From positions 7,267 through 71,266 of the forward strand of contig LNFF01000040.1 of assembly GCA_001464585.1 (NCBI GenBank): a stretch of 64,000 bases of DNA, given 5' to 3'. This document shows positions 8,343 to 63,380 of this stretch, one piece after another. Source of the DNA: Gammaproteobacteria bacterium Ga0077554. Lineage in GTDB: Bacteria > Pseudomonadota > Gammaproteobacteria > Ga0077554 > Ga007554. Below the pieces are notes generated by a model that did no database searches, was not told where the DNA came from, and saw nothing but the letters and a program-made list of their open reading frames with translations. Numbering within the stretch: position 1 is the first letter of the stretch; each line of letters starts with the position of its first letter. The position numbers were made by a program, and so were the translations under genes.

Positions 8343-9725
8343 TTATTGTCTGCGGCGCCGTACCCAAATCAACAAACCAGCGCCTGCCAATAACAAGGGA
8401 ATGCCAAACAGGAATGTCACGGCAATAATCCCCGATGCCACGGGAGACAATGTCAGATTAAGATCGGGGGCGGTTTTGATGGGGATGGCGATCAAGGTTT
8501 CGTCACGGCTCAGCCAGTTCATGATATTCATTCCCAGGTTGAGATTGCCACCGTTGCCCAAATACGCATTCGAGAGAAAATCACCATCGCCCAGTACGAC
8601 TACGCGCTGCTGAATGCGCGTTTTGTCATCGCGCCCCGTCCCATTTAAGGCGTCGCGGCTGATGCTTGCGCCCAAGGTCAATGGCCCTGCAATATCTTCC
8701 TTTTCAGTATAACGTATCTCACCGGCGAGCGGGCCGGTTTCTGCCCAGCTACGTTCGCCCGTGATGATGAATGGCTGGCTTTGCCAACCTTCGGGCGCAG
8801 TGATTTTCAAGCCACTCGCGATAGGAAAAAGTGTAATGACATTAAAGCCACGCGTGATGGCGTGATTGCCATAATCCGCCGCAAGGGCAAAGGCCGGATT
8901 GTTAATGGAATATACCTGCACGCTGGGATCAACAATCACGCCGGGCAAAAATTCCACTCCCAAAAACCGCGCAATGGGCGCCAGGCCATGTAACGAACCG
9001 GGGTCACTCAACCACAACAGGCTGCCTCCCTGCGCGAGATAACGCTGAATCAGCGTGATTTCGCCAGGCAACAAATCAAGTTGCGGGCTGGCAATGACGA
9101 GAATTGTGGTGTTGTCAGGAATTTGGCCGTGGGTTGCCAGATTCAAGGTTTGCGCCTTGAATCCTTTGGCCTCAATCTGGCGCACCCAGTCACCCAGATC
9201 ATGGTTGGCGCGGCCCTGCGGATTACGTTCGCCATGGCCTTCCAGAAACACTATCCAGCGCTCACCACTGCGTAGCAGGCGTTGCAGCGCATTAGTAATG
9301 CTCTGCTCGCTGATGTCGCGGATTATTTCTTTGCGGCCTGCATAGCGCAGCACCAGTTCACCTTCGGCGCTGACGCCTTCGTCACGCACTTGATTGGGCG
9401 CTGTAGCGGGGTCTATAAATGTTAACTGAATATCGGCTTTGTGACGCTGATAGCGCGCGATCATTTCTGCGATGGATTTGCGATTACTGTCTACTGCATG
9501 CACAAAAGCGCTTACCGTGACAGGGCCTTTGGCCTGATTCAGCAATGCGACGCTGGCTGCAGAAAGGGTGTGACGACCGCTGGCCGTCCAGTCCGCTTGG
9601 TAGTCGTAGCGCGTGCTTAGCCACGCCAGCACACCGATAATGCTGATGAGCAACACTACCCACAAGGCATTTTTCAATTGCAGAAAACGGCGTGTTTTAG
9701 GTGTGGCCTTCATAAATAAGGGCAT
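8343..9725 (-). CDS. GldG-like auxiliary component of an ABC-2 type transport system
   Basis: 460 aa, N- and C-terminal TM anchors with a large periplasmic domain. It lies directly downstream of the ABC-2 permease and ATPase genes with 3-4 nt gaps or overlaps. Confidence 0.65.
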   Translation of the reverse strand: MPLFMKATPKTRRFLQLKNALWVVLLISIIGVLAWLSTRYDYQADWTASGRHTLSAASVALLNQAKGPVTVSAFVHAVDSNRKSIAEMIARYQRHKADIQLTFIDPATAPNQVRDEGVSAEGELVLRYAGRKEIIRDISEQSITNALQRLLRSGERWIVFLEGHGERNPQGRANHDLGDWVRQIEAKGFKAQTLNLATHGQIPDNTTILVIASPQLDLLPGEITLIQRYLAQGGSLLWLSDPGSLHGLAPIARFLGVEFLPGVIVDPSVQVYSINNPAFALAADYGNHAITRGFNVITLFPIASGLKITAPEGWQSQPFIITGERSWAETGPLAGEIRYTEKEDIAGPLTLGASISRDALNGTGRDDKTRIQQRVVVLGDGDFLSNAYLGNGGNLNLGMNIMNWLSRDETLIAIPIKTAPDLNLTLSPVASGIIAVTFLFGIPLLLAGAGLLIWVRRRRQ

Positions 9726-11571: not shown

Positions 11572-12858
11572 ATGGATGATTTAACCACACTATTGCGCGA
11601 CTGGATGGATGCTCTGGGCACGCCTGCTGTGCAAGTGCAACTGGGTGTTATCACGTGCGCGGGTTTGTTTGGCGCATGGTTGTACCGTTATTGGACGCAA
11701 CGACTCGCCACGCTCTCGGCAACCTCTCCCGATCACTGGTTGCGTGATTTCTTTTTACGCGGGTTATCGCGGATTATTTTCCCCTTTGGCATGTTCCTGT
11801 TCATGGCGGTGGGCCGCGTTATCCTGCGCAAAGCGCGCATGGATGTCGAACTACTGGATAGCGTGATGCCCCTGGCGCTCTCCTGGGCGGCAATCCGTCT
11901 CGCGGTATTTATTTTACGCACCAGCTTTAATCCCACCCGCACACTTAAAGCATGGGAAGGCATTATCAGCACCACGCTGTGGGTGGCTGTCGCATTGCAT
12001 TTATTGGGATGGTTGCCGGATATTTTGAATGCGATGGATGAAATTGCATTCCACGCCGGCAAAGTCCACATTTCGCTACTTGCTGTCACCAAATTAGTGC
12101 TGGCGGTCGCCAGTCTGTTGATATTGGCGCTGTGGCTGTCTAATTTTATCGAGAAACGCCTGGCGGGCGCCAGTGATATGGACGCAGGTATGCGCATCGG
12201 CATTGCCAAGTTCAGCCGCTTCCTGCTGCTGACCTTTGCCCTGCTGCTCTCGCTGTATAGCGCCGGTATCGACTTAACGGCACTTGCCGTTTTCGGCGGA
12301 GCTTTAGGCGTGGGGCTAGGCTTTGGCTTGCAGCGCATCGCCAGTAATTTTATCAGCGGTTTTATTCTGGTGATGGACCGTTCGATTCGGCCGGGTGATG
12401 TTATTACCACCGGCAACACTTATGGCTGGGTACAGGAAATGCGCGCCCGCTACGTCGTCGTGCATACGCGTGATGGCTCTGACACCCTCATCCCCAATGA
12501 GAAATTAATCACCTCGGATGTGATTAACTGGAGCTATGCAAATCCCAACATGAGCATTTCATTGGCCCTGCGCATCAGCTATCAGGATGACCCGGAGCGC
12601 GCCATACAGATCATGCTCGATATTGCCCGCAAGCATGCTCGCGTGCTCAGTGATCCTGCGCCAAGCTGCATTTTGAAAGAATTTGGTGAGGCTGGGATTA
12701 CGCTAGAAATGACCGTGTGGATCAATGATCCCGAAGCCGGAATCACCAACGTACGCTCCGATCTGTATCTTGCGATCTGGAAAGCGTTCAAGCAACACGC
12801 CATTACGATTCCCCATACCCTCCCGCCTGCTCCACCAGCACCAGCGCCGGAAATATAA
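11572..12858 (+). CDS. mechanosensitive ion channel, MscS family
   Basis: Multiple N-terminal TM helices followed by the MscS beta-domain pattern ('GDVITTGNTYGWVQEMRARYVVVHTRDG...IPN'). The ATG at 11572 is preferred over the track start at 11500. Confidence 0.75.
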   Translation: MDDLTTLLRDWMDALGTPAVQVQLGVITCAGLFGAWLYRYWTQRLATLSATSPDHWLRDFFLRGLSRIIFPFGMFLFMAVGRVILRKARMDVELLDSVMPLALSWAAIRLAVFILRTSFNPTRTLKAWEGIISTTLWVAVALHLLGWLPDILNAMDEIAFHAGKVHISLLAVTKLVLAVASLLILALWLSNFIEKRLAGASDMDAGMRIGIAKFSRFLLLTFALLLSLYSAGIDLTALAVFGGALGVGLGFGLQRIASNFISGFILVMDRSIRPGDVITTGNTYGWVQEMRARYVVVHTRDGSDTLIPNEKLITSDVINWSYANPNMSISLALRISYQDDPERAIQIMLDIARKHARVLSDPAPSCILKEFGEAGITLEMTVWINDPEAGITNVRSDLYLAIWKAFKQHAITIPHTLPPAPPAPAPEI

Positions 12859-12897
12859 ACCCAAAAAATCCCACGCCGAGTCAGCGCAGAAACGAAG

Positions 12898-13012
12898 CCA
12901 GATTTCTCCCGGCAACTGCTCCTGCGTTGCTCTACCTTCCGCCATCCATGGCGGTCGCCTTCGGTCGAAATGACAGTGAGGCTGTCATCCCGAACGAAGA
13001 GAGGGATCTTGG
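12898..13012. repeat. MITE/REP-like nested palindromic element (family A, 'tgtcatttcgaccgaagg...cgaaatgaca', plus a 'gtcatcccgaacg' module)
   Basis: Near-identical to copies at 21885, 25775, 49845 and 57507. Confidence 0.8.
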
Positions 13013-21884: not shown

Positions 21885-22039
21885 TGTCATTTCGACCGAA
21901 GGCGACCGCCATGGATGGCGGAAGGTAGAGCAACGCGCCGGGCAGGATGCCCAAGTGCGGTGGGCGCAGGGATGCGCAAGAACCGCCCGGAGCAGTTGCC
22001 GGGAGAAATCTTAAGATTCCTCGCTGCGCTCGGAATGAC
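21885..22039. repeat. MITE/REP-like element, family A with a 'cgaggaatcttaag...cggaatgaca' module
   Basis: Matches 12898, 25775 and 49845. Confidence 0.8.
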
Positions 22040-22149
22040 ATGGTTTATGTAACCTGTCCCAAGTTTATTAAGCGAACAGTATTGAGGCGCAACCCGGTGC
22101 GCCATTACTCGCCGAAGTGACATCCGCTCTGCCGTTTCTAATGGAAAAC

Positions 22150-23990: not shown

Positions 23991-24072
23991 AACCCGTAGC
24001 AAGCAAGCTGCGGGGTATTTCTCTGTCATTCCGAGCACCGCGAGGAATCTTAAGCAAGATCCCTCACTGCGC
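23991..24072. repeat. MITE-like element, family B ('gtcattccgagc..cgaggaatcttaag..agatccctcactgcg')
   Basis: Shares modules with 30243, 37690, 42058, 59956 and 63229. A related fragment 'gcgtagcgaggaacccaaacccaaagagattga' lies at 24095..24140 and again at 48205..48245. Confidence 0.75.
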
Positions 24073-24166
24073 CTGAAATGATAAGGGCGATGACAATAAA
24101 CCAAGCTACGGGGAAAGCGTAGCGAGGAACCCAAACCCAAAGAGATTGATCAAGGAGAATGTATTT

Positions 24167-25774: not shown

Positions 25775-25885
25775 TGTCATTTCGACCGAAGGCGACCGCC
25801 ATGGATGGCGGAAGGTAGAGCAACGCAGGAGCAGTTGCCGGGAGAAATCTTTTGCGTAGGATTTCTCCCTTCGGTCGAAATGACA
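25775..25885. repeat. MITE/REP-like element, family A (complete hairpin form)
   Basis: 'tgtcatttcgaccgaaggcgaccgccatggatggcggaaggtagagcaacgcaggagcagttgccgggagaaatc...gatttctcccttcggtcgaaatgaca'. Confidence 0.85.
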
Positions 25886-30242: not shown

Positions 30243-30412
30243 TTCAGGGATCTTCACAGCAAGCTGCGGGATATTTCCATGTCATTTCGACCCTCGCGAA
30301 AGCGGGGGGAGAAATCCTTGTCTCGAGTCTCGAACGAGGTGAGGGAACTTTGAGAGATCTTCCAGGATCCCTCACTTCGTTCGGGATGACAACTCCCAGT
30401 CATTTCGTCGCT
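30243..30412. repeat. composite MITE-like element (families A and B modules)
   Basis: 'agcaagctgcgggatatttccatgtcatttcgaccctcgcgaaagcgggggagaaatccttgtctcga...gagggaac..gagagatcttcc..gatccctcacttcgttcgggatgaca'. Confidence 0.75.
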
Positions 30413-37689: not shown

Positions 37690-37802
37690 TACCCCGCAGC
37701 AAGCTGCGGGGTATTTCCATGTCATTCCGAGCATCGCGAGGAATCTTAAAAGATCCCTCACTGCGTTCGGGATGACAGTTATTCTTTACGGTCGGGATGA
37801 CA
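37690..37802. repeat. MITE-like element, family B, between urtA and urtB
   Basis: 'ccccgcagcaagctgcggggtatttccatgtcattccgagcatcgcgaggaatcttaaaagatccctcactgcgttcgggatgaca...gtcgggatgaca'. Confidence 0.8.
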
Positions 37803-39721: not shown

Positions 39722-42025
39722 ATGTTTCATTCACCGTTTTCCAAAAGCCTTACGGCGCTTGCCATTGCCAGCGCACTGAACATTTCGCCAGCCCTTGCCG
39801 AAGATGGGCATGGTGATGTCTTTTCCCGAATTGCAACCTTTCCGGTTTTTCTCAATACCGCTATAGATCAGCCAACCGTGGCTGAAATCGTCGCCGCCAG
39901 TGAAGACGGTAATATCCTCGTCTATACCGATTCCAAGGGCGGGAACATTGGTTTTGTGGATATTGCCGATCCGGCCCATCCCCAACCTTTGGGCACCGTC
40001 GCCGTTGGCGGTGAACCGACCTCGGTGGCCATCGTAGGTAATTATGCCTTGGTCGCGGTGAATACCTCACCCAGCTTTGTTGCACCGAGTGGTAAGCTGC
40101 TTGTCGTGAATATCGCCACGCATTCCATCGTGTCGACCATTGATCTCGGCGGTCAGCCTGATGCCGTTGCCATCAGTCCGGATCGGCGCTATGCCGCCGT
40201 TGTCATCGAAAACCAGCGCGATGAAGAACTGGGCGATGGCGCGCCACCGCAGACGCCCGCTGGCTACTTGACGATCGTCGATCTGGTCGGTGGCCCCGGT
40301 GGCTGGACTACGCGCAAAGTCAACCTGACGGGTTTGCCTGGCATGCTTTACGCCGCTGATCCGGAACCCGAATACGTGGCTATCAACCACAACAACGTTG
40401 CTGTGGTGACCTTGCAGGAGAATAATCATATTGCACTGGTGAATCTGGCGACGGGCAAGGTGGTAGATCATTTCAGCGCCGGCACCGTCAACCTGGATCG
40501 GATTGACACCAACGAAAATGATTTAATCGAACTCAACAGCAGCCTGACCAGCGTCCCGCGTGAACCGGATGGCGTTACCTGGATCTCAAACAGCGAGTTC
40601 GCCACGGCCGATGAAGGTGATCTCAACGGCGGCAGTCGCGGCTTTACCATTTACGACACATCGGGCACAGTCCGTTATGCTGCGGGTAACAGCGTTGAAC
40701 ACACCATCGTCCGTCATGGTCATTACCCCGAAGACCGCTCGGAAAACAAGGGCAACGAACCGGAAAATGTAGCCGCCGCACGCTATGGCAAAGACAACTT
40801 GCTGTTCGTCGGCTCCGAGCGCGCCAGCGTCGTGCTGGTTTACCAGATGATGAACCCGCTTAAACCCAAACTGCTCCAGGTCTTGCCCTCTGCCGTCAAA
40901 CCTGAGGGACTGCTGACCATTCCGCAGCGCAAGTTGCTCGTCGTCGCCAGCGAGGAAGATGCCCGCGACGATAAGATACGCGCGGCGTTGACCATTTACC
41001 GGCAGGGCGCGCAAGCCACCTACCCCACAGTGATTTCTAAAAACCGTGCCGGCGGTACGCCGATACCCTGGGGCGCGTTATCCGGTTTGGCGGCCGATCC
41101 ACAGAAGAAAAGGACGGTCTACGCCATCCATGACAGCTTCTATGACAAGAGCCGCATTTTTGTGATGGATGCGCATAACGAACCAGCGGTCATCAGAAAA
41201 GAAATCGTATTGCATGATGCGATGGGTAAACTGGCTGCGGTACAGGCCAGTATGGTCAACGGCGATGGCACGGTACACCTGGATCCGGAAGGCATCGCCG
41301 TCAGCGATGACGGCGGGTTCTGGATCGTCTCCGAGGGAGGCGGCACGGTAGGCGATGCACAGCGCCCGTTCGAAACGCTCAATCTGTTATTGAAGATCGG
41401 CAAGGACGGTGTGATCGAACGGGTCGTGACCTTGCCGGCAGCAGTCAATGCCCGTCAGGTGCGTTTTGGGTTTGAAGGCGTGACATCGGTCGGCACAGGC
41501 CAGAACGAAGTGATCTATGTCGCGTTTCAGCGCGAGTGGGCCGGTGATCCGAAAGGCAAGGTTCGTATAGGTCGCTATACCACCGCGACCGGTGCCTGGA
41601 ATTTTTACTATTACCCCTTGGACCTGCCGGCTTCCGCCAATGGCGGTTGGGTCGGTCTCTCCGAACTCACCGCTGTCGGCGATGACGAATTCATCGTAGT
41701 CGAACGTGACGACCAGAGTGGAGCCGACGCGGTCATCAAACGCATTTATAAATTCTCCGTTGCGAACTTGAACCCGATGGTAGATGAGGGCGGTATTCCT
41801 GGCTTCCCGGTGGTCAGTAAACACCTGGTGCATGACCTGATGCCGGACTTAAAGGCCACCGGCGGACAGGTGCTGGAGAAAATCGAAGGGCTCACTGTGT
41901 TGCATAATGGTGATGTACTGGTCGTCAATGACAATGATGGCGTAAAGGACTCAAACGGTGAAACCCGGTTATTAAGGCTGGAGAAATTGCTGGGAGACCA
42001 TAATGGACATGATGAGGGGCATTAA
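39722..42025 (+). CDS. secreted 767-aa beta-propeller / phytase-like esterase family protein (possible phosphatase)
   Basis: Signal peptide 'ALAIASALNISPALA/ED'. Repeated beta-propeller-like blocks ('choice-of-anchor I'-like N-half, phytase-like esterase C-half). His-rich tail 'DHNGHDEGH'. AAGGAG RBS. Confidence 0.5.
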   Translation: MFHSPFSKSLTALAIASALNISPALAEDGHGDVFSRIATFPVFLNTAIDQPTVAEIVAASEDGNILVYTDSKGGNIGFVDIADPAHPQPLGTVAVGGEPTSVAIVGNYALVAVNTSPSFVAPSGKLLVVNIATHSIVSTIDLGGQPDAVAISPDRRYAAVVIENQRDEELGDGAPPQTPAGYLTIVDLVGGPGGWTTRKVNLTGLPGMLYAADPEPEYVAINHNNVAVVTLQENNHIALVNLATGKVVDHFSAGTVNLDRIDTNENDLIELNSSLTSVPREPDGVTWISNSEFATADEGDLNGGSRGFTIYDTSGTVRYAAGNSVEHTIVRHGHYPEDRSENKGNEPENVAAARYGKDNLLFVGSERASVVLVYQMMNPLKPKLLQVLPSAVKPEGLLTIPQRKLLVVASEEDARDDKIRAALTIYRQGAQATYPTVISKNRAGGTPIPWGALSGLAADPQKKRTVYAIHDSFYDKSRIFVMDAHNEPAVIRKEIVLHDAMGKLAAVQASMVNGDGTVHLDPEGIAVSDDGGFWIVSEGGGTVGDAQRPFETLNLLLKIGKDGVIERVVTLPAAVNARQVRFGFEGVTSVGTGQNEVIYVAFQREWAGDPKGKVRIGRYTTATGAWNFYYYPLDLPASANGGWVGLSELTAVGDDEFIVVERDDQSGADAVIKRIYKFSVANLNPMVDEGGIPGFPVVSKHLVHDLMPDLKATGGQVLEKIEGLTVLHNGDVLVVNDNDGVKDSNGETRLLRLEKLLGDHNGHDEGH

Positions 42026-42057: not shown

Positions 42058-42115
42058 TGTCATTCCGAACGCACGTGAGGAATCTTAAAGATTTCTCGCT
42101 ACGCTCGAAATGACA
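42058..42115. repeat. MITE-like element, family B short form
   Basis: 'tgtcattccgaacgcacgtgaggaatcttaaagatttctcgctacgctcgaaatgaca'. Confidence 0.8.
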
Positions 42116-47425: not shown

Positions 47426-47776
47426 ATTTTTTCCGATTTATTATTCAGAGCCACGGCCTCCAGGAATCACCAATAGTTTAGTTATAACATATAAATTATT
47501 GCATTACACAACACTACCCCAAATGCTACCGTAGCTGGAATACACTGGGCACTAGAATGGTGCGTGGGGCGAGGGCTGGAGATGTTTTTGGTGCGCAAGG
47601 CAGGTGGCTATGAACGCAAAAAGACAAAAAGCAAGGCCTGCCCCAAAGCGGAGGAAAATCTTAAAGATTTCTCCTGCGATCGAAATGACAGCGGTTGATA
47701 TGAATAACATTCACCATCCCAAACGAACAGTATTGAGAGGCGATCCCGACCCGTCGCCCTGGTCGGCTTATCTTCT

Positions 47777-49844: not shown

Positions 49845-50000
49845 TGTCATTTCGACCGCAGGCGACCGCCATGGATGGCGGAAGGTAGAGCAACGCAGGA
49901 GCAGTTGCCGGGAGAAATCCTTGTCTCGAACGTAAAGAATAACTGTCATCCCGAACGTAGTGAGGGATCTTCAGGATTTCTCCCTTCGGTCGAAATGACA
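49845..50000. repeat. composite MITE-like element (family A plus 'gtcatcccgaacgtagtgagggatcttcagg' module) between sdhB and sdhE
   Basis: Matches the 25775 and 12898 copies. Confidence 0.85.
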
Positions 50001-57506: not shown

Positions 57507-57564
57507 TGTCATTTCGACCGAAGGCGACCGCCATCCATGGCGGTCGCCTTCGGTCGAAATGACA
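57507..57564. repeat. 58-bp perfect hairpin element (family A core)
   Basis: 'tgtcatttcgaccgaaggcgaccgccat|ccatggcggtcgccttcggtcgaaatgaca', 3' of the aspA-like gene. Confidence 0.85.
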
Positions 57565-59955: not shown

Positions 59956-60011
59956 TGTCATTCCGAGCGTAGTGAGGAATCTTAAGATGTCTCACTGCGT
60001 TCGACATGACA
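59956..60011. repeat. MITE-like element, family B short form
   Basis: 'tgtcattccgagcgtagtgaggaatcttaagatgtctcactgcgttcgacatgaca'. Confidence 0.8.
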
Positions 60012-60834: not shown

Positions 60835-63144
60835 CTACGCCCGGATTTTGCGGCGGCGCAGCAGCAGTGCGCCGGGCGCGCCTAGCAACAGGAGATCAAG
60901 AAAACCAAAGGCACCGCCGCCACCGTCACTGGTGCCAAAGTTAGTACCGGGCGCAACCGCTGTCACCACGCATGCACCGCTTACGCAGCTATCTAGTGAA
61001 CCATTATTACCCGGCAAATAATCGCTGGGTGAAGTCACATCCGCCCTGGCGCGCATTTCTATAGTTCTATTGTTCAGAAGTGGGTCAGTGGGTGTCACAG
61101 TAATAAAAACCGTAAAACTTGCGCCCACTGCCAAATTAGGCGTGCTGCAATTAACCGGATTGGCGGTGGTAACGCACACCACCGACACCAGGTTAGTAGC
61201 ATCAGGAACTACCAAGGCAGAAGTCCCCAACGGTATCTGCGCCGTTAGCGTCACTCCTTGGGCAGCGCCGGGGCCTTTATTGGTCACCACCAATGTGTAT
61301 GTCACCGGGTTGTCCAGTGATACATTAGGCGTATTACCGGTCACGGCCACTTCTAAGTCCACCCTTCCCACTGCCTCAACACCATCCGTTTCCACTGCGC
61401 CGATGTCACACACGGTATTATTGCCCGGCCGACCATAGAGGCGTTGATCAAATTTATTGATACAGGTTCCCGCACCGATTGCCGCACTAGGCGCCTGCGG
61501 CACAAAAACAGCGGGATGGGCAGTAGCATTATCTGAAGTAACTAATAACAGGGTATCTGGTGAATTATTGCCATTTTCACCCAGCGTTCCCAAATTAGGA
61601 GAGGCGTTAATTATATCGGTCGCAGTCAAGCCACAGCTATTACCATTTTCCAGGTTATTACCCCCCGACATCATCTTGGCCGCAGCAGTAATAGCAGTAC
61701 CGACCTCATTATAGCCACTCATACAATTGAGCTGGCCAGACACTGGCGCAGTATTGCCTCCAATAATAGTATTATGAATGGCGTTATTCAATTTCGCTGC
61801 ATTTGCTGGATTAGGATCCACGCTCACAAACATTTCTTCGCCGCTGCCCTCCGCCGTATTTCCGCTAAGCGTGACATTGGTCAACGTCAAGGTGCGGCCA
61901 TTGAAAATTCCACCCCCCGCTCTGAAGGCGTTGTTCCCGGTGATCGTGCTATTGGTCACTGTGACATCACCAGGCGCACGGTTATAGATACCACCGCCGT
62001 CTGCACTGGCGCCATTACCATTTGCTTTATTTCCGCTGATGGTGCTGTAGATGATCTCCGCACCGCCCTGGTTGAGAATACCGCCGCCGGTATTGCTATC
62101 CACGACGCTGGAGATCACGCGCAAACTGCCGGTCACAGAGCTCTGGCCCGCCCCATCCAGATTAGACACACCACCGCCCTCAAGCGCCGTGTTGAGGCGA
62201 ACAATGGTACGCGTGAGCGTGACGGCGCCGCCATGATTACTGATACCGCCACCCGCGTTATTCCCGGCATTGGTGTTGCTGAGCACGATACTTTCATTAA
62301 TGGTGAGCTTGCCCGTACCAGTGGCCGCACCATTACTGTTTTGAATACCGCCACCGAAAGGACGCCCGCTATTGTTCTTAACTGTGGTTTTGTTAAGCGT
62401 CATAATGCCGCTATTGAAAATGCCGCCGCCGCCAATAAACGCGCCCACCGCATTAGCAGTAACATTCAATATTGAGTTATTACTGATGATGCAATTATTC
62501 ACCACCATTTGCGCGTTGCTGCCATTATAAAGCCCGCCGCCGCTATAACTGCCACTAATAGTAGCGTGGCCAATCGTGTTGTTGGTGATGGTGCAATTTC
62601 CCAGCGTCAACCAGCCGTTAGCATTATTAATCGCGCCACCGTCTGCCCGTACTACCCCATTCCGAATGGTCACATTGTTAATATTGACAGTATTCCTGCC
62701 CACAATATGGAAAACACGGTCAAGCCCGCCACCATCAATAATAGTGGCATTACCATTAATAGTAAGGCACGGAGTATTAATGCTGACACTGGGGCACGTG
62801 CCGCGAATATCCAGGTCACCTTGTGCGGCATTGTCTTCATTCGTGCCCGGAATACTCAGGGTGTACGTGGTGGCGAGCAAACCAATGACGATATTGGTAT
62901 CGCGGGTCGCATCAGTGCGATTCATCAAGTCGTTGGCCTGCTGAATGGCGGCGCGCAGGGTGCATGCACCCCCCGCACCCTGACCCTCACACAAGCCATC
63001 GGCAAGATTGGTGTCCGGGGCATCGATCTGAGAATTTACACTAAAGGTCACGGCCTGCGCCGGAGCAGTCAGCAATAACCCTGTGAACAATACCGGTAAC
63101 ATGAATGCGGTATGATAACCACGTAATAATTTGTAATTAAACAT
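60835..63144 (-). CDS. large secreted right-handed beta-helix repeat protein with a CSLREA-like N-terminal motif and a GlyGly-CTERM-like sorting tail
   Basis: Signal peptide. 'CTLRAAIQQAN' is CSLREA-like. More than 20 'N.TI..N.A..GGGI.N' parallel beta-helix repeats. The C-terminus 'GGGGAFGFLDLLLLGAPGALLLRRRKIRA' is Gly-run, then TM helix, then basic cluster. Confidence 0.65.
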   Translation of the reverse strand: MFNYKLLRGYHTAFMLPVLFTGLLLTAPAQAVTFSVNSQIDAPDTNLADGLCEGQGAGGACTLRAAIQQANDLMNRTDATRDTNIVIGLLATTYTLSIPGTNEDNAAQGDLDIRGTCPSVSINTPCLTINGNATIIDGGGLDRVFHIVGRNTVNINNVTIRNGVVRADGGAINNANGWLTLGNCTITNNTIGHATISGSYSGGGLYNGSNAQMVVNNCIISNNSILNVTANAVGAFIGGGGIFNSGIMTLNKTTVKNNSGRPFGGGIQNSNGAATGTGKLTINESIVLSNTNAGNNAGGGISNHGGAVTLTRTIVRLNTALEGGGVSNLDGAGQSSVTGSLRVISSVVDSNTGGGILNQGGAEIIYSTISGNKANGNGASADGGGIYNRAPGDVTVTNSTITGNNAFRAGGGIFNGRTLTLTNVTLSGNTAEGSGEEMFVSVDPNPANAAKLNNAIHNTIIGGNTAPVSGQLNCMSGYNEVGTAITAAAKMMSGGNNLENGNSCGLTATDIINASPNLGTLGENGNNSPDTLLLVTSDNATAHPAVFVPQAPSAAIGAGTCINKFDQRLYGRPGNNTVCDIGAVETDGVEAVGRVDLEVAVTGNTPNVSLDNPVTYTLVVTNKGPGAAQGVTLTAQIPLGTSALVVPDATNLVSVVCVTTANPVNCSTPNLAVGASFTVFITVTPTDPLLNNRTIEMRARADVTSPSDYLPGNNGSLDSCVSGACVVTAVAPGTNFGTSDGGGGAFGFLDLLLLGAPGALLLRRRKIRA

Positions 63145-63228
63145 TGCTTGCTCTCCTCACGACGGACGTGCTTATGCAGGCCGCATTACCCGATATCCCT
63201 GTCAGGACGGTGTTTTTATGGATATTTC

Positions 63229-63380
63229 TGTCATGCCGAATGTAGTGAGGGATCTTAAAAGATCTCTCAAAGATCTCTCACATTCGTTCGAGACTCGAGA
63301 CAAGGATTTCTCACTACGTTCGAAATGACAACGCCTGGCTACGCTCGAAATGACAATGCGTCACTTTGTTCGTAACAACA
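63229..63380. repeat. cluster of MITE-like modules (families A and B)
   Basis: 'tgtcatgccgaatgtagtgagggatcttaaaagatctctcaaagatctctcacattcgttcgagactcgagacaaggatttctcactacgttcgaaatgaca..cgctcgaaatgaca'. Confidence 0.8.

What the first reader, a model, noticed from the sequence alone, without database searches (positions are those of the whole stretch)
60835..63144. 769-aa beta-helix protein with CSLREA-like N-terminal motif and GlyGly-CTERM-like tail (predicted rhombosortase substrate)
After the signal peptide comes 'CTLRAAIQQAN', resembling the CSLREA motif. The protein then carries more than 20 parallel-beta-helix turns. Its tail 'GGGGAFGFLDLLLLGAPGALLLRRRKIRA' is a Gly-run, a TM helix and a basic cluster, fitting the GlyGly-CTERM architecture processed by rhombosortase. 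This suggests a surface-attached adhesin or polysaccharide-lyase-like protein and predicts a rhombosortase gene elsewhere in the genome.
Basis: partly seen in the sequence, partly recalled or inferred. Interest (0 to 1): 0.5.

Follow-up and report, generated by a model that had tools for sequence, protein, structure and literature searches.

The report
RbtA-like surface beta-helix protein with sorting tail
This gene encodes a secreted beta-helix surface protein from an uncultured gammaproteobacterium. Its C-terminal tail is a divergent GlyGly-CTERM-type sorting signal like that of Acinetobacter Rhombotarget A, so it is an ordinary new member of a known class, and the matching protease could not be checked.

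Summary
The ORF is real: 60835-63144, minus strand, 769 aa, with a Shine-Dalgarno and syntenic orthologs in several gammaproteobacterial MAGs.

Its layout is signal peptide, CTLRAA cap, right-handed beta-helix, choice-of-anchor-Q segment (CDIGAVE), one DUF11/CLIPPER Ig domain, disordered linker, then GGGG + hydrophobic helix + RRRK. The helix has about 13-16 rungs, not more than 20.

The tail fails every curated sorting-signal HMM; GlyGly-CTERM scores 7.8-8.4 bits against a cut-off of 15.5. Four results still favour a GlyGly-CTERM signal:
- A syntenic ortholog (P0047) and another homolog (P0038) pass that cut-off, and their tails align in register with this one.
- The Gly run, a Leu at +7 and a helix-breaking Pro at +12 to +14 are conserved. 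These are the determinants shown experimentally for V. cholerae rhombosortase.
- No Cys and no PEP or LPXTG motif is present.
- A. baumannii RbtA has the same architecture and is a remote homolog (hhalign 97.6%). RbtA itself gets no TIGR03501 hit either.

No rhombosortase and no second tail-bearing protein was found in about 250 kb of probable same-genome DNA, which is too small a sample to be informative.

Verdict: new member of a known kind. Low interest.

The parts
63153..63158 (-). Shine-Dalgarno GAGGAG, 8 nt upstream of the ATG
   Evidence: Sequence read.
63052..63144 (-). Sec signal peptide, aa 1-31, predicted cleavage AQA|V. No lipobox Cys.
   Evidence: Read from the sequence. Helix 15-25 in the model.
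62905..63051 (-). CSLREA-type N-terminal cap, aa 32-80. Includes the C52...C61 pair, motif C61-T-L-R-A-A66 and capping helix 63-74.
   Evidence: TIGR04214 scores 18.7-20.5 bits, below the cut-off of 25. The motif is invariant in 35 homologs. All 35 hit the model at E<=1. The region aligns to the CTLREA cap of the A. baumannii VB958 RbtA (the PDB RbtA chain reads CSLREA).
61510..62904 (-). Right-handed parallel beta-helix, aa 81-545. Nine GGG-x-x-N (PMP-like) repeats, about 13-16 rungs.
61387..61509 (-). Choice-of-anchor Q segment, aa 546-586. Carries the invariant D566-Q-R...R572 and C579-D-I-G-A-x-E585 and closes the beta-helix.
   Evidence: NF041518 scores 29.7 bits against a cut-off of 25. 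35 of 35 homologs hit it. Invariant columns. The equivalents are CDLGAIE in RbtA and CDIGSVE in its neighbour.
61000..61359 (-). DUF11/CLIPPER Ig-like beta-sandwich, aa 596-715, with conserved C657/C666. There is no Lys at the usual isopeptide position.
   Evidence: PF01345 scores 43.5 bits vs 24.6, and TIGR01451 scores 33.7 vs 24. Foldseek TM 0.70 to 9IFR. The missing Lys is read from the sequence and is an inference.
60925..60999 (-). Linker, aa 716-740. Includes C720/C725 and the conserved N735-F736 just before the Gly run.
   Evidence: pLDDT is below 50 from aa 708. Column counts.
60838..60924 (-). Tripartite C-terminal signal, aa 741-769: GGGG (741-744), hydrophobic helix AFGFLDLLLLGAPGALLL with L751 (+7) and P757 (+13), and basic end RRRKIRA.
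   Evidence: Conservation over 35 homologs: G741-744 in 27/31/33/35, P757 in 31/35, R764/R765 in 30/34. Offsets. HMM scores. In-register alignment with the TIGR03501-positive P0038 and P0047.

Best explanation
The gene encodes a cell-envelope beta-helix protein of the CSLREA / choice-of-anchor-Q superfamily. It is built like Acinetobacter Rhombotarget A.

Shown by sequence and model: a Sec signal peptide, a CTLRAA-capped right-handed beta-helix, one CLIPPER Ig domain, a flexible linker, and a C-terminal Gly-run + membrane helix + Arg cluster.

Inferred mechanism, step by step:
1. After Sec export the tail holds the protein in the inner membrane, with the Gly run at the periplasmic face.
2. A rhombosortase-type rhomboid protease cleaves at the end of the Gly run, probably after G744.
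3. The new C-terminal Gly is amide-linked to a glycerophosphoethanolamine lipid.
4. A type II secretion system carries the lipid-anchored protein to the cell surface, as shown for VesB in V. cholerae.

The passenger most likely acts as an adhesin or polysaccharide-binding module. An enzymatic role (lyase or epimerase) is not excluded.
For: Architecture and fold.

The tail behaves as a recognition signal rather than a plain anchor. The Gly run, the mid-helix Pro and the Arg pair are nearly invariant over 35 homologs, while other helix positions drift.

Homology-anchored assignment, which is the promotion criterion of Haft & Varghese 2011 (PMC3237569):
- P0047 scores 20.7 bits and P0038 22.0 bits against the TIGR03501 cut-off of 15.5.
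- P0047 sits in the same synteny as the target.
- The full-length alignment runs in register through the tails.
- GlyGly_CTERM is the only sorting model that recurs in the family (3 of 35). No PEP-CTERM or MYXO-CTERM hit occurs.

Determinants for RssP in VesB are G382-G383, L390 (+7) and P395 (+12) (PMC11389362). In this family Leu is at +7 in 24 of 35 and Pro at +12 to +14 in 29 of 35. The target has L751 at +7 and P757 at +13.

RbtA, the TIGR04212 reference rhombosortase target, has the same layout: signal peptide, C[ST]LREA, beta-helix, CDLGAIE, extra domain, GGGGS-helix-RRFKS.
- hhalign to the target family gives 97.6%, E 2.9e-12.
- RbtA gets no TIGR03501 hit in a whole-protein scan. Its CSLREA neighbour scores 14.8, below 15.5. 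Failing the cut-off is therefore not disqualifying.
- Its rhombosortase is not adjacent either.

The adjacent GlyGly-CTERM-annotated pair in A. nosocomialis, which I take to be these two genes by gene order, was T2SS-dependent (PMC4713064).
Against: - TIGR03501 is clearly failed: 7.8-8.4 bits against 15.5.
- No rhombosortase or any rhomboid gene was seen in the window, 9 kb beyond it, 1.43 Mb of homolog flanks, or 442 kb of repeat-tagged contigs.
- No T2SS genes lie in the window.
- The 'many unrelated substrates' hallmark was not observed. An exhaustive profile search of 1.84 billion representatives found this tail variant only on members of its own family. No other tail-bearing ORF was found in the window or in the sampled contigs.
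- The residue after the Gly run is Ala. The equivalent S384A change inactivated VesB.
- The helix after the Pro is about 3 residues longer than in the model-positive orthologs.
Confidence: 0.6

Rival explanations
1. The tail is a permanent C-terminal membrane anchor. The protein would be a type I inner-membrane protein whose beta-helix faces the periplasm, with no cleavage and no lipid attachment.
For: - The tail fails all curated sorting-signal models.
- This tail variant is restricted to one protein family among 1.84 billion representatives.
- No sorting protease was found in any DNA examined.
- The hydrophobic stretch of 18 residues is long enough for a stable span.
Against: - A plain anchor does not need an invariant Gly run, or a helix-breaking Pro kept at a fixed offset over 34-82% divergence.
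- Orthologous tails pass the GlyGly-CTERM model.
- Other family members swap this tail for different sorting or anchoring ends. That 'choice-of-anchor' behaviour is typical of surface-sorted proteins.
- RbtA, with the same build, is described as a cell-surface protein (PMC12643943). The Acinetobacter GlyGly-CTERM pair was T2SS-dependent (PMC4713064).
Confidence: 0.2
2. The tail is cleaved or sorted by something other than a rhombosortase. One option is a general GlpG-type rhomboid that releases the protein in soluble form. Another is an as yet undescribed sorting enzyme specific for this GGGG-AFG...P-G-A-L-L-L-RRRK variant.
For: - V. cholerae GlpG also cleaves VesB, in the loop before the tail, and releases it (PMC11389362).
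- The tail differs from canonical GlyGly-CTERM in three ways: Ala or Val instead of Ser after the Gly run, Pro at +13, and a longer helix.
- The variant is family-specific.
Against: - No candidate enzyme is conserved next to the gene. The conserved neighbours are DUF1538 x2, P-II, CBS, Uma2 and an FMN reductase.
- The signature residues match those needed by RssP.
- There is no Cys for myxosortase-type systems and no PEP motif for exosortase.
Confidence: 0.12
3. The tail is a PEP-CTERM/exosortase signal or an LPXTG/sortase signal that scores weakly.
For: On tail excerpts, LPXTG_anchor scored 14.5-16.1 bits against 15.9, and PEP_CTERM scored 12.3-13.6 against 16.
Against: - The PEP-CTERM match covers only profile positions 9-23, the helix and basic part. 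No P-E-P is present.
- No L-P-x-T-G is present, and the lineage is Gram-negative Gammaproteobacteria.
- Neither model recurs across the 35 family members: LPXTG hits 1 of 35 at E 0.4, and PEP-CTERM hits none.
Confidence: 0.02

Closest known systems
Rhombotarget A (RbtA, NCBIfam TIGR04212; A. baumannii; PDB 9CDV/9CDU) and its adjacent CSLREA-domain paralog
   Same: - Same order of parts: Sec signal peptide, C[ST]LR[EA]A cap, right-handed beta-helix closed by C-D-[IL]-G-[AS]-x-E, a further beta domain, a linker, and a Gly run + helix + basic end.
- Remote homology: hhalign 97.6% (E 2.9e-12) to RbtA and 96.4% to the paralog.
- The sorting protease gene is not adjacent in either organism.
   Different: - No TIGR04212 hit at E<=10, so the target is not an RbtA family member.
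- No direct sequence hit to the PDB chain.
- The target has a DUF11/CLIPPER domain where RbtA has a different C-terminal domain.
- The tail has Ala rather than Ser after the Gly run, and a mid-helix Pro that RbtA lacks.
GlyGly-CTERM / rhombosortase system (TIGR03501 / TIGR03902; VesB-RssP of V. cholerae)
   Same: - Tripartite tail after a disordered linker.
- No Cys in the motif.
- Gly-Gly, Leu at +7 and a helix-breaking Pro near +12, as required for RssP cleavage of VesB (PMC11389362).
- A positional ortholog passes TIGR03501.
   Different: - The target is below the curated cut-off.
- The helix is longer, and the P1' residue is Ala.
- A rhombosortase, a T2SS and additional substrates could not be shown for this organism.
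CSLREA-domain / choice-of-anchor Q beta-helix proteins (TIGR04214, NF041518), widespread in Chloroflexota and Proteobacteria
   Same: The cap, the GDLDI and DRVFH motifs, the PMP-like GGG-x-x-N rungs and the DQR...CDIGAxE closing segment are shared.
   Different: Other members end in dockerin, a T9SS Por tail, a 'YLPLIxR' end or no tail at all. This gammaproteobacterial branch uses the Gly-run tail.
Pectate-lyase-fold enzymes and adhesins (AlgE4 A-module, PL6/PL9 lyases, Vag8, pertactin, PfbA)
   Same: - The N-cap profile weakly matches AlgE-type epimerases at E about 1e-3.
   Different: No family-level sequence match and no recognised catalytic motif. The fold alone does not separate an adhesin from an enzyme.

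Membership tests
GlyGly-CTERM sorting domain (TIGR03501) | Score at or above the curated cut-off of 15.5 bits | tested here: not met
   7.8-8.4 bits on tail excerpts, and no hit on the whole protein. Caveat: RbtA also gets no hit, and its paralog scores 14.8.
GlyGly-CTERM sorting domain (TIGR03501) | Extreme C-terminal tripartite architecture: Gly-rich motif, one TM helix, basic cluster | tested here: met
   GGGG at 741-744, helix at 748-768 in the model, RRRK at 763-766.
GlyGly-CTERM sorting domain (TIGR03501) | No Cys in the signature motif (separates it from MYXO-CTERM; PMC3237569) | tested here: met
   No Cys between aa 726 and 769 in the target. None lies in the Gly-run signature of the 35 tails listed, although a few of them carry a Cys inside the helix.
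GlyGly-CTERM sorting domain (TIGR03501) | N-terminal signal peptide and no other membrane helix | tested here: met
   Signal peptide read from the sequence. The only other long helix in the model is 748-768.
GlyGly-CTERM sorting domain (TIGR03501) | Full-length homology that runs through trusted GlyGly-CTERM examples (the curators' promotion rule, PMC3237569 section 8) | tested here: met
   P0038 (22.0 bits) and P0047 (20.7 bits) pass. P0047 is syntenic with the target. The tails align in register.
GlyGly-CTERM sorting domain (TIGR03501) | Rhombosortase (TIGR03902) encoded in the same genome | not testable with these tools
   The source is an unbinned metagenome contig, LNFM01 / AADWTP_10000019. 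No rhomboid-like ORF was found in the 64-kb window, 9 kb beyond it, or about 180 kb of repeat-tagged LNFM01 contigs. That is about 7% of a genome, assuming about 3-4 Mb.
GlyGly-CTERM sorting domain (TIGR03501) | The same tail on otherwise unrelated proteins of the genome (many-to-one) | tested here: inconclusive
   Only family members carry this variant among 1.84 billion representatives. None was found in the window or the sampled contigs. Single-target genomes do exist: 25 of 108 in PMC3237569.
GlyGly-CTERM sorting domain (TIGR03501) | Residues needed for RssP cleavage of VesB: small-small at P2-P1, Leu at +7, helix-breaking Pro at about +12 | tested here: met
   G743-G744, L751 (+7), P757 (+13). 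Across the family, Leu is at +7 in 24 of 35 and Pro at +12 to +14 in 29 of 35 (PMC11389362). Caveat: P1' is Ala, and S384A was inactive in VesB.
CSLREA N-terminal domain (TIGR04214) | Score at or above the curated cut-off of 25 bits | tested here: not met
   18.7 bits on the whole protein and 20.5 on the N-terminal excerpt.
CSLREA N-terminal domain (TIGR04214) | C-[ST]-L-R-[EA]-A motif just after the signal peptide, heading a beta-helix | tested here: met
   CTLRAA at aa 61-66, invariant in 35 homologs. All 35 hit the model at E<=1, best 1.2e-9. One RbtA allele reads CTLREA.
Choice-of-anchor Q domain (NF041518) | Score at or above the curated cut-off of 25 bits | tested here: met
   29.7 bits at aa 546-586. 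35 of 35 homologs hit it.
DUF11 / CLIPPER (PF01345, TIGR01451) | Scores above the gathering and curated cut-offs, with a CnaA-like Ig fold | tested here: met
   43.5 bits vs 24.6 and 33.7 vs 24. Foldseek TM 0.70 and rmsd 3.0 to 9IFR.
DUF11 / CLIPPER (PF01345, TIGR01451) | Intramolecular Lys-Asn isopeptide (present only in some members; PMC12617251) | tested here: inconclusive
   The first strand reads VDLEVAVTGN, with no Lys at the usual x-T-K position (read from the sequence). No structural test was run.
Rhombotarget A (TIGR04212) | Equivalog HMM score of at least 295 bits | tested here: not met
   No hit at E<=10. Only remote homology is found: hhalign 97.6%.
PEP-CTERM (TIGR02595) | P-E-P motif before the helix, and a score of at least 16 bits | tested here: not met
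   12.3-13.6 bits covering only profile positions 9-23. No PEP motif is present.
LPXTG anchor (TIGR01167) | L-P-x-T-G motif | tested here: not met
   The motif is absent. Scores are 14.5-16.1 bits vs 15.9 on excerpts only, and 1 of 35 family members hits at E 0.4.
MYXO-CTERM (TIGR03901) | Invariant Cys in the signature motif | tested here: not met
   No Cys in the motif, and no hit for the target at E<=10. Some orthologs score 12-18 bits, below the cut-off of 20.
Right-handed parallel beta-helix (pectate-lyase-like fold) | Three-stranded rungs stacked in a right-handed helix | tested here: met
   [not shown]

The most novel reading that the evidence does not exclude
The GGGG-[AV]-F-G...L...G-x-P-G-A-L-L-L-RRRK tail may be a distinct, family-restricted sorting signal rather than an ordinary GlyGly-CTERM. 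It occurs only on this beta-helix family, is missed by the curated model, has a longer helix, and carries a P1' residue that V. cholerae RssP does not accept. It could be handled by a specialised rhombosortase variant or by a different enzyme. More broadly, CSLREA / choice-of-anchor-Q beta-helices (RbtA, its paralog, this family) may be a dedicated, ancient class of rhombosortase cargo across Gammaproteobacteria.
Probability: 0.15. Interest if true: 0.45.

Novelty: new member of a known kind. Interest (0 to 1): 0.22.

Why it matters
- It adds an uncultured, freshwater/groundwater gammaproteobacterial branch to the RbtA-like class of surface beta-helix proteins.
- It shows that the curated GlyGly-CTERM model (TIGR03501) misses both this branch and RbtA itself. 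Genome surveys that rely on that HMM will therefore undercount rhombosortase substrates.
- RbtA was recently used as a target for designed peptide binders, yet its function is unknown. A wider family with conserved motifs (GDLDI, DRVFH, DQR...CDIGAxE) gives a basis for finding its functional surface.
- Otherwise this is an ordinary envelope protein.

Tried and rejected
1. Adjacency of a rhombosortase. Catalytic-motif scans (G-x-S-G...H-x-x-G-x-x-x-G) covered the window plus 89 homolog loci (1.43 Mb) and found nothing. My first regex was off by one and was redone.
2. Pfam contexts of eight loci. None contained a Rhomboid gene.
3. Tail profile in the word-indexed protein search. The third returned only two fragments, so one search was wasted.
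4. Getting a rhombosortase seed sequence.
   - The supplements of the 2011 paper hold no sequences.
   - tblastn of the GlpG core against plasmids gave only generic rhomboids: a 205-aa Acinetobacter gene and a 576-aa Ralstonia protein.
   - I abandoned this route because no tool could restrict a search to this genome anyway.
5. Sampling the genome through its dispersed repeat. This gave 80 loci (442 kb), 20 of them from LNFM01. They held no rhomboid ORF and no Gly-run tail, which is uninformative at about 7% coverage.
6. Direct sequence searches of PDB with the protein and with the family profile. RbtA was not found. Only a profile restricted to the cap found it.
7. ORF 8343-9725 ends in a helix + RRRRQ, but it is an ABC-transporter auxiliary (GldG-like) protein, not a sorting substrate.
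8. PEP-CTERM, LPXTG and MYXO-CTERM were considered and rejected because their motifs are absent.
Full report
**Observation**

The ORF at 60835..63144 on the minus strand encodes 769 aa. A GAGGAG Shine-Dalgarno lies 8 nt upstream of the start. An identical protein is on record on a 317,579-bp metagenome contig, JGI 3300002461 AADWTP_10000019, which is also NCBI WGS LNFM01. The samples are named 'AADWTP' and 'activated carbon metagenome'.

About 25 full-length orthologs at 34-82% identity exist, all in MAGs labelled Gammaproteobacteria. They sit in conserved synteny: DUF1538 x2, P-II, CBS | gene | Uma2, FMN reductase, LysM. It is therefore a real, vertically inherited gene.

The claim of 'more than 20 turns' is an overcount. 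There are nine GGG-x-x-N repeats and roughly 13-16 rungs.

**Anatomy**

- NCBIfam and Pfam place a choice-of-anchor Q segment at aa 546-586 (29.7 bits vs 25) and a DUF11/CLIPPER domain at aa 596-715 (43.5 bits vs 24.6).
- CSLREA_Nterm scores 18.7-20.5 bits, below its cut-off of 25.
- An AlphaFold model built on 35 homologs (pLDDT 77, pTM 0.74) shows:
  - a capping helix at 63-74,
  - a right-handed beta-helix to about aa 520,
  - an Ig sandwich at 597-702,
  - a disordered linker at 708-747,
  - a single terminal helix at 748-768.
- Foldseek matches the Ig domain to the CLIPPER structure 9IFR with TM 0.70.
- Fourteen Cys residues fall in plausible pairs, which fits an extracytoplasmic protein.

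**The tail against curated models**

On its own the tail scores as follows:
- GlyGly_CTERM: 7.8-8.4 bits, cut-off 15.5.
- PEP_CTERM: 12.3-13.6 bits, cut-off 16, matching the helix and basic part only.
- LPXTG: 14.5-16.1 bits, cut-off 15.9, with no LPXTG motif present.

**Homology-anchored evidence**

- Across 35 full-length homologs the Gly run is nearly invariant: G741-744 appear in 27, 31, 33 and 35 sequences. P757 appears in 31 and R764/R765 in 30 and 34. Other helix positions drift.
- Two more distant homologs pass TIGR03501: P0038 at 22.0 bits and P0047 at 20.7 bits.
- P0047 lies in the same synteny (Glu-synthase, CBS, P-II, DUF1538), so it is a positional ortholog.
- The full-length alignment runs in register through the N-F-x-G pre-motif, the Gly run, the Pro and the Arg cluster.
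- This is exactly the rule the family's curators used to promote low-scoring tails (PMC3237569).
- Over all 35 proteins, GlyGly_CTERM is the only sorting model that recurs (3 of 35). PEP-CTERM and MYXO-CTERM never appear.
- The target group's helix is about 3 residues longer after the Pro. That explains the poor fit to a 22-position HMM.

**Comparison with experiment**

In V. cholerae, rhombosortase RssP cleaves VesB after G383 of SGGS. The new Gly terminus is then linked to a glycerophosphoethanolamine-containing moiety, and the T2SS takes the protein to the surface (PMC6219818). Cleavage needs G382-G383, L390 (+7) and the helix-breaking P395 (+12) (PMC11389362).

In this family Leu is at +7 in 24 of 35 tails and Pro at +12 to +14 in 29 of 35. 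The target has L751 at +7 and P757 at +13, and the two model-positive orthologs have Pro at +12.

One mismatch remains. The residue after the Gly run is Ala or Val, and S384A was inactive in VesB.

**RbtA**

- The best Foldseek PDB match is Rhombotarget A, 9CDV.
- Whole-protein sequence searches miss it.
- A profile of canonical CSLREA caps ranks RbtA first (E 0.014). The alignment shows that its mature N-terminus is [23 protein letters not shown].
- In A. baumannii, rbtA (TIGR04212, 991 bits) is followed by a second 'CSLREA domain-containing protein'.
- Both proteins have the cap, a beta-helix closed by CDLGAIE or CDIGSVE, a further domain and GGGG(G)S-helix-basic tails.
- hhalign of the target family against them gives 97.6% (E 2.9e-12) and 96.4%.
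- RbtA gets no TIGR03501 hit in a whole-protein scan, and its neighbour scores 14.8, below 15.5.
- No rhombosortase is adjacent to them.
- The adjacent GlyGly-CTERM-annotated pair in A. nosocomialis, which I take to be these two genes by gene order, was T2SS-dependent (PMC4713064).

The target is therefore a remote homolog with the same architecture as the reference rhombosortase substrate. It is not a TIGR04212 member.

**What could not be shown**

No rhomboid, exosortase or T2SS gene lies in the fully annotated window or 9 kb beyond it. None lies near any homolog.

The source is an unbinned metagenome, so the genome cannot be scanned directly. I used a dispersed intergenic repeat as a genome tag to pull in 80 further loci. 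Twenty of these come from LNFM01. They held no rhomboid ORF and no Gly-run tail. Together this is only about 7% of a genome, assuming about 3-4 Mb.

An exhaustive profile search of 1.84 billion representative proteins found this tail variant only on its own family. The 'many unrelated substrates' hallmark is therefore not demonstrated here.

**Conclusion**

The best-supported reading (about 0.6) is a Sec-exported, RbtA-like beta-helix surface protein. Its divergent GlyGly-CTERM tail would be cut by a rhombosortase, lipid-linked, and surfaced by the T2SS.

The main rival (about 0.2) is a permanent inner-membrane anchor. A different protease (about 0.12) is the next option.

The function of the passenger is inferred only from fold and repeats: an adhesin or glycan binder is more likely than an enzyme. 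This is a new member of a known kind and of low general interest.

Noticed in passing
window 12698-12999, 21885-22040, 24024-24083, 25775-25885, 30280-30391, 37720-37777, 42058-42115, 46126, 47674-47690, 49845-50000, 57507-57564, 59956-60011, 63229-63355: A dispersed intergenic palindromic (REP/MITE-like) repeat with core TGTCATTTCGARCGTAG. It has 24 copies at up to 3 mismatches against 0.17 expected, mostly as inverted pairs. One cluster lies just upstream of the target gene. A longer variant (AGGCGACCGCCATGGATGGCGG) also occurs on 15 other LNFM01 contigs and in many other metagenomes.
   Followed up: partly
window 39722-42025 (+): A second 'choice-of-anchor' protein, carrying choice_anch_I and a phytase-like domain. 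It is 767 aa with a signal peptide but no membrane tail (it ends ...DHNGHDEGH). It sits between an ABC amino-acid or urea-type transporter and the urease gene cluster.
   Followed up: partly
homologs P0033, P0037, P0041, P0051, P0056, P0066, P0068, P0084-P0088, P0090, P0096-P0099, P0110, P0113: Many distant CSLREA beta-helix homologs end in a short conserved C-terminal motif, x-Y-L-P-[LI]-[IV]-x-[RK], with no hydrophobic helix. Chloroflexota dominate the distant genome-contig loci, but I did not look up the organisms of these proteins. This is a different, apparently recurrent C-terminal signal that I did not identify.
   Followed up: no
L090 6931-9753 and L091 6913-9723: The GlyGly-CTERM-type homologs P0047 and P0042 each have a divergently transcribed neighbour of 936-940 aa. 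Its domains are PP-binding + AMP-binding + acyltransferase, like Aas (2-acylglycerophosphoethanolamine acyltransferase / acyl-ACP synthetase). This is intriguing because rhombosortase cargo is attached to a glycerophosphoethanolamine lipid. The gene is absent next to the target.
   Followed up: no
L094 4944-9245 (A. baumannii CP040041.1): rbtA is followed directly by a second CSLREA beta-helix gene with a GlyGly-type tail, so both Acinetobacter GlyGly-CTERM proteins appear to be CSLREA proteins. TIGR03501 gives no hit on RbtA and 14.8 bits (below 15.5) on the second gene. The curated tail model therefore misses its own reference substrates in whole-protein scans.
   Followed up: yes
L009 7146-9674 and 10001-12433 (GCA_947085925.1): There are tandem paralogs of the target family, P0024 and P0022. 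Both have Gly-run tails, with the Pro at +6 rather than +13.
   Followed up: no
window 8343-9725 (-): This ORF ends in a hydrophobic helix plus RRRRQ and so mimics a sorting tail. It is an ABC-transporter auxiliary component (PF09822, GldG-like) lying next to ABC transporter genes.
   Followed up: yes
PLSDB records NZ_CP064203.1, NZ_CP077849.1, NZ_CP104448.1, NZ_CP134663.1: Several records of 3.6-4.9 Mb in the plasmid collection are evidently whole chromosomes of A. baumannii and E. coli filed as plasmids.
   Followed up: no
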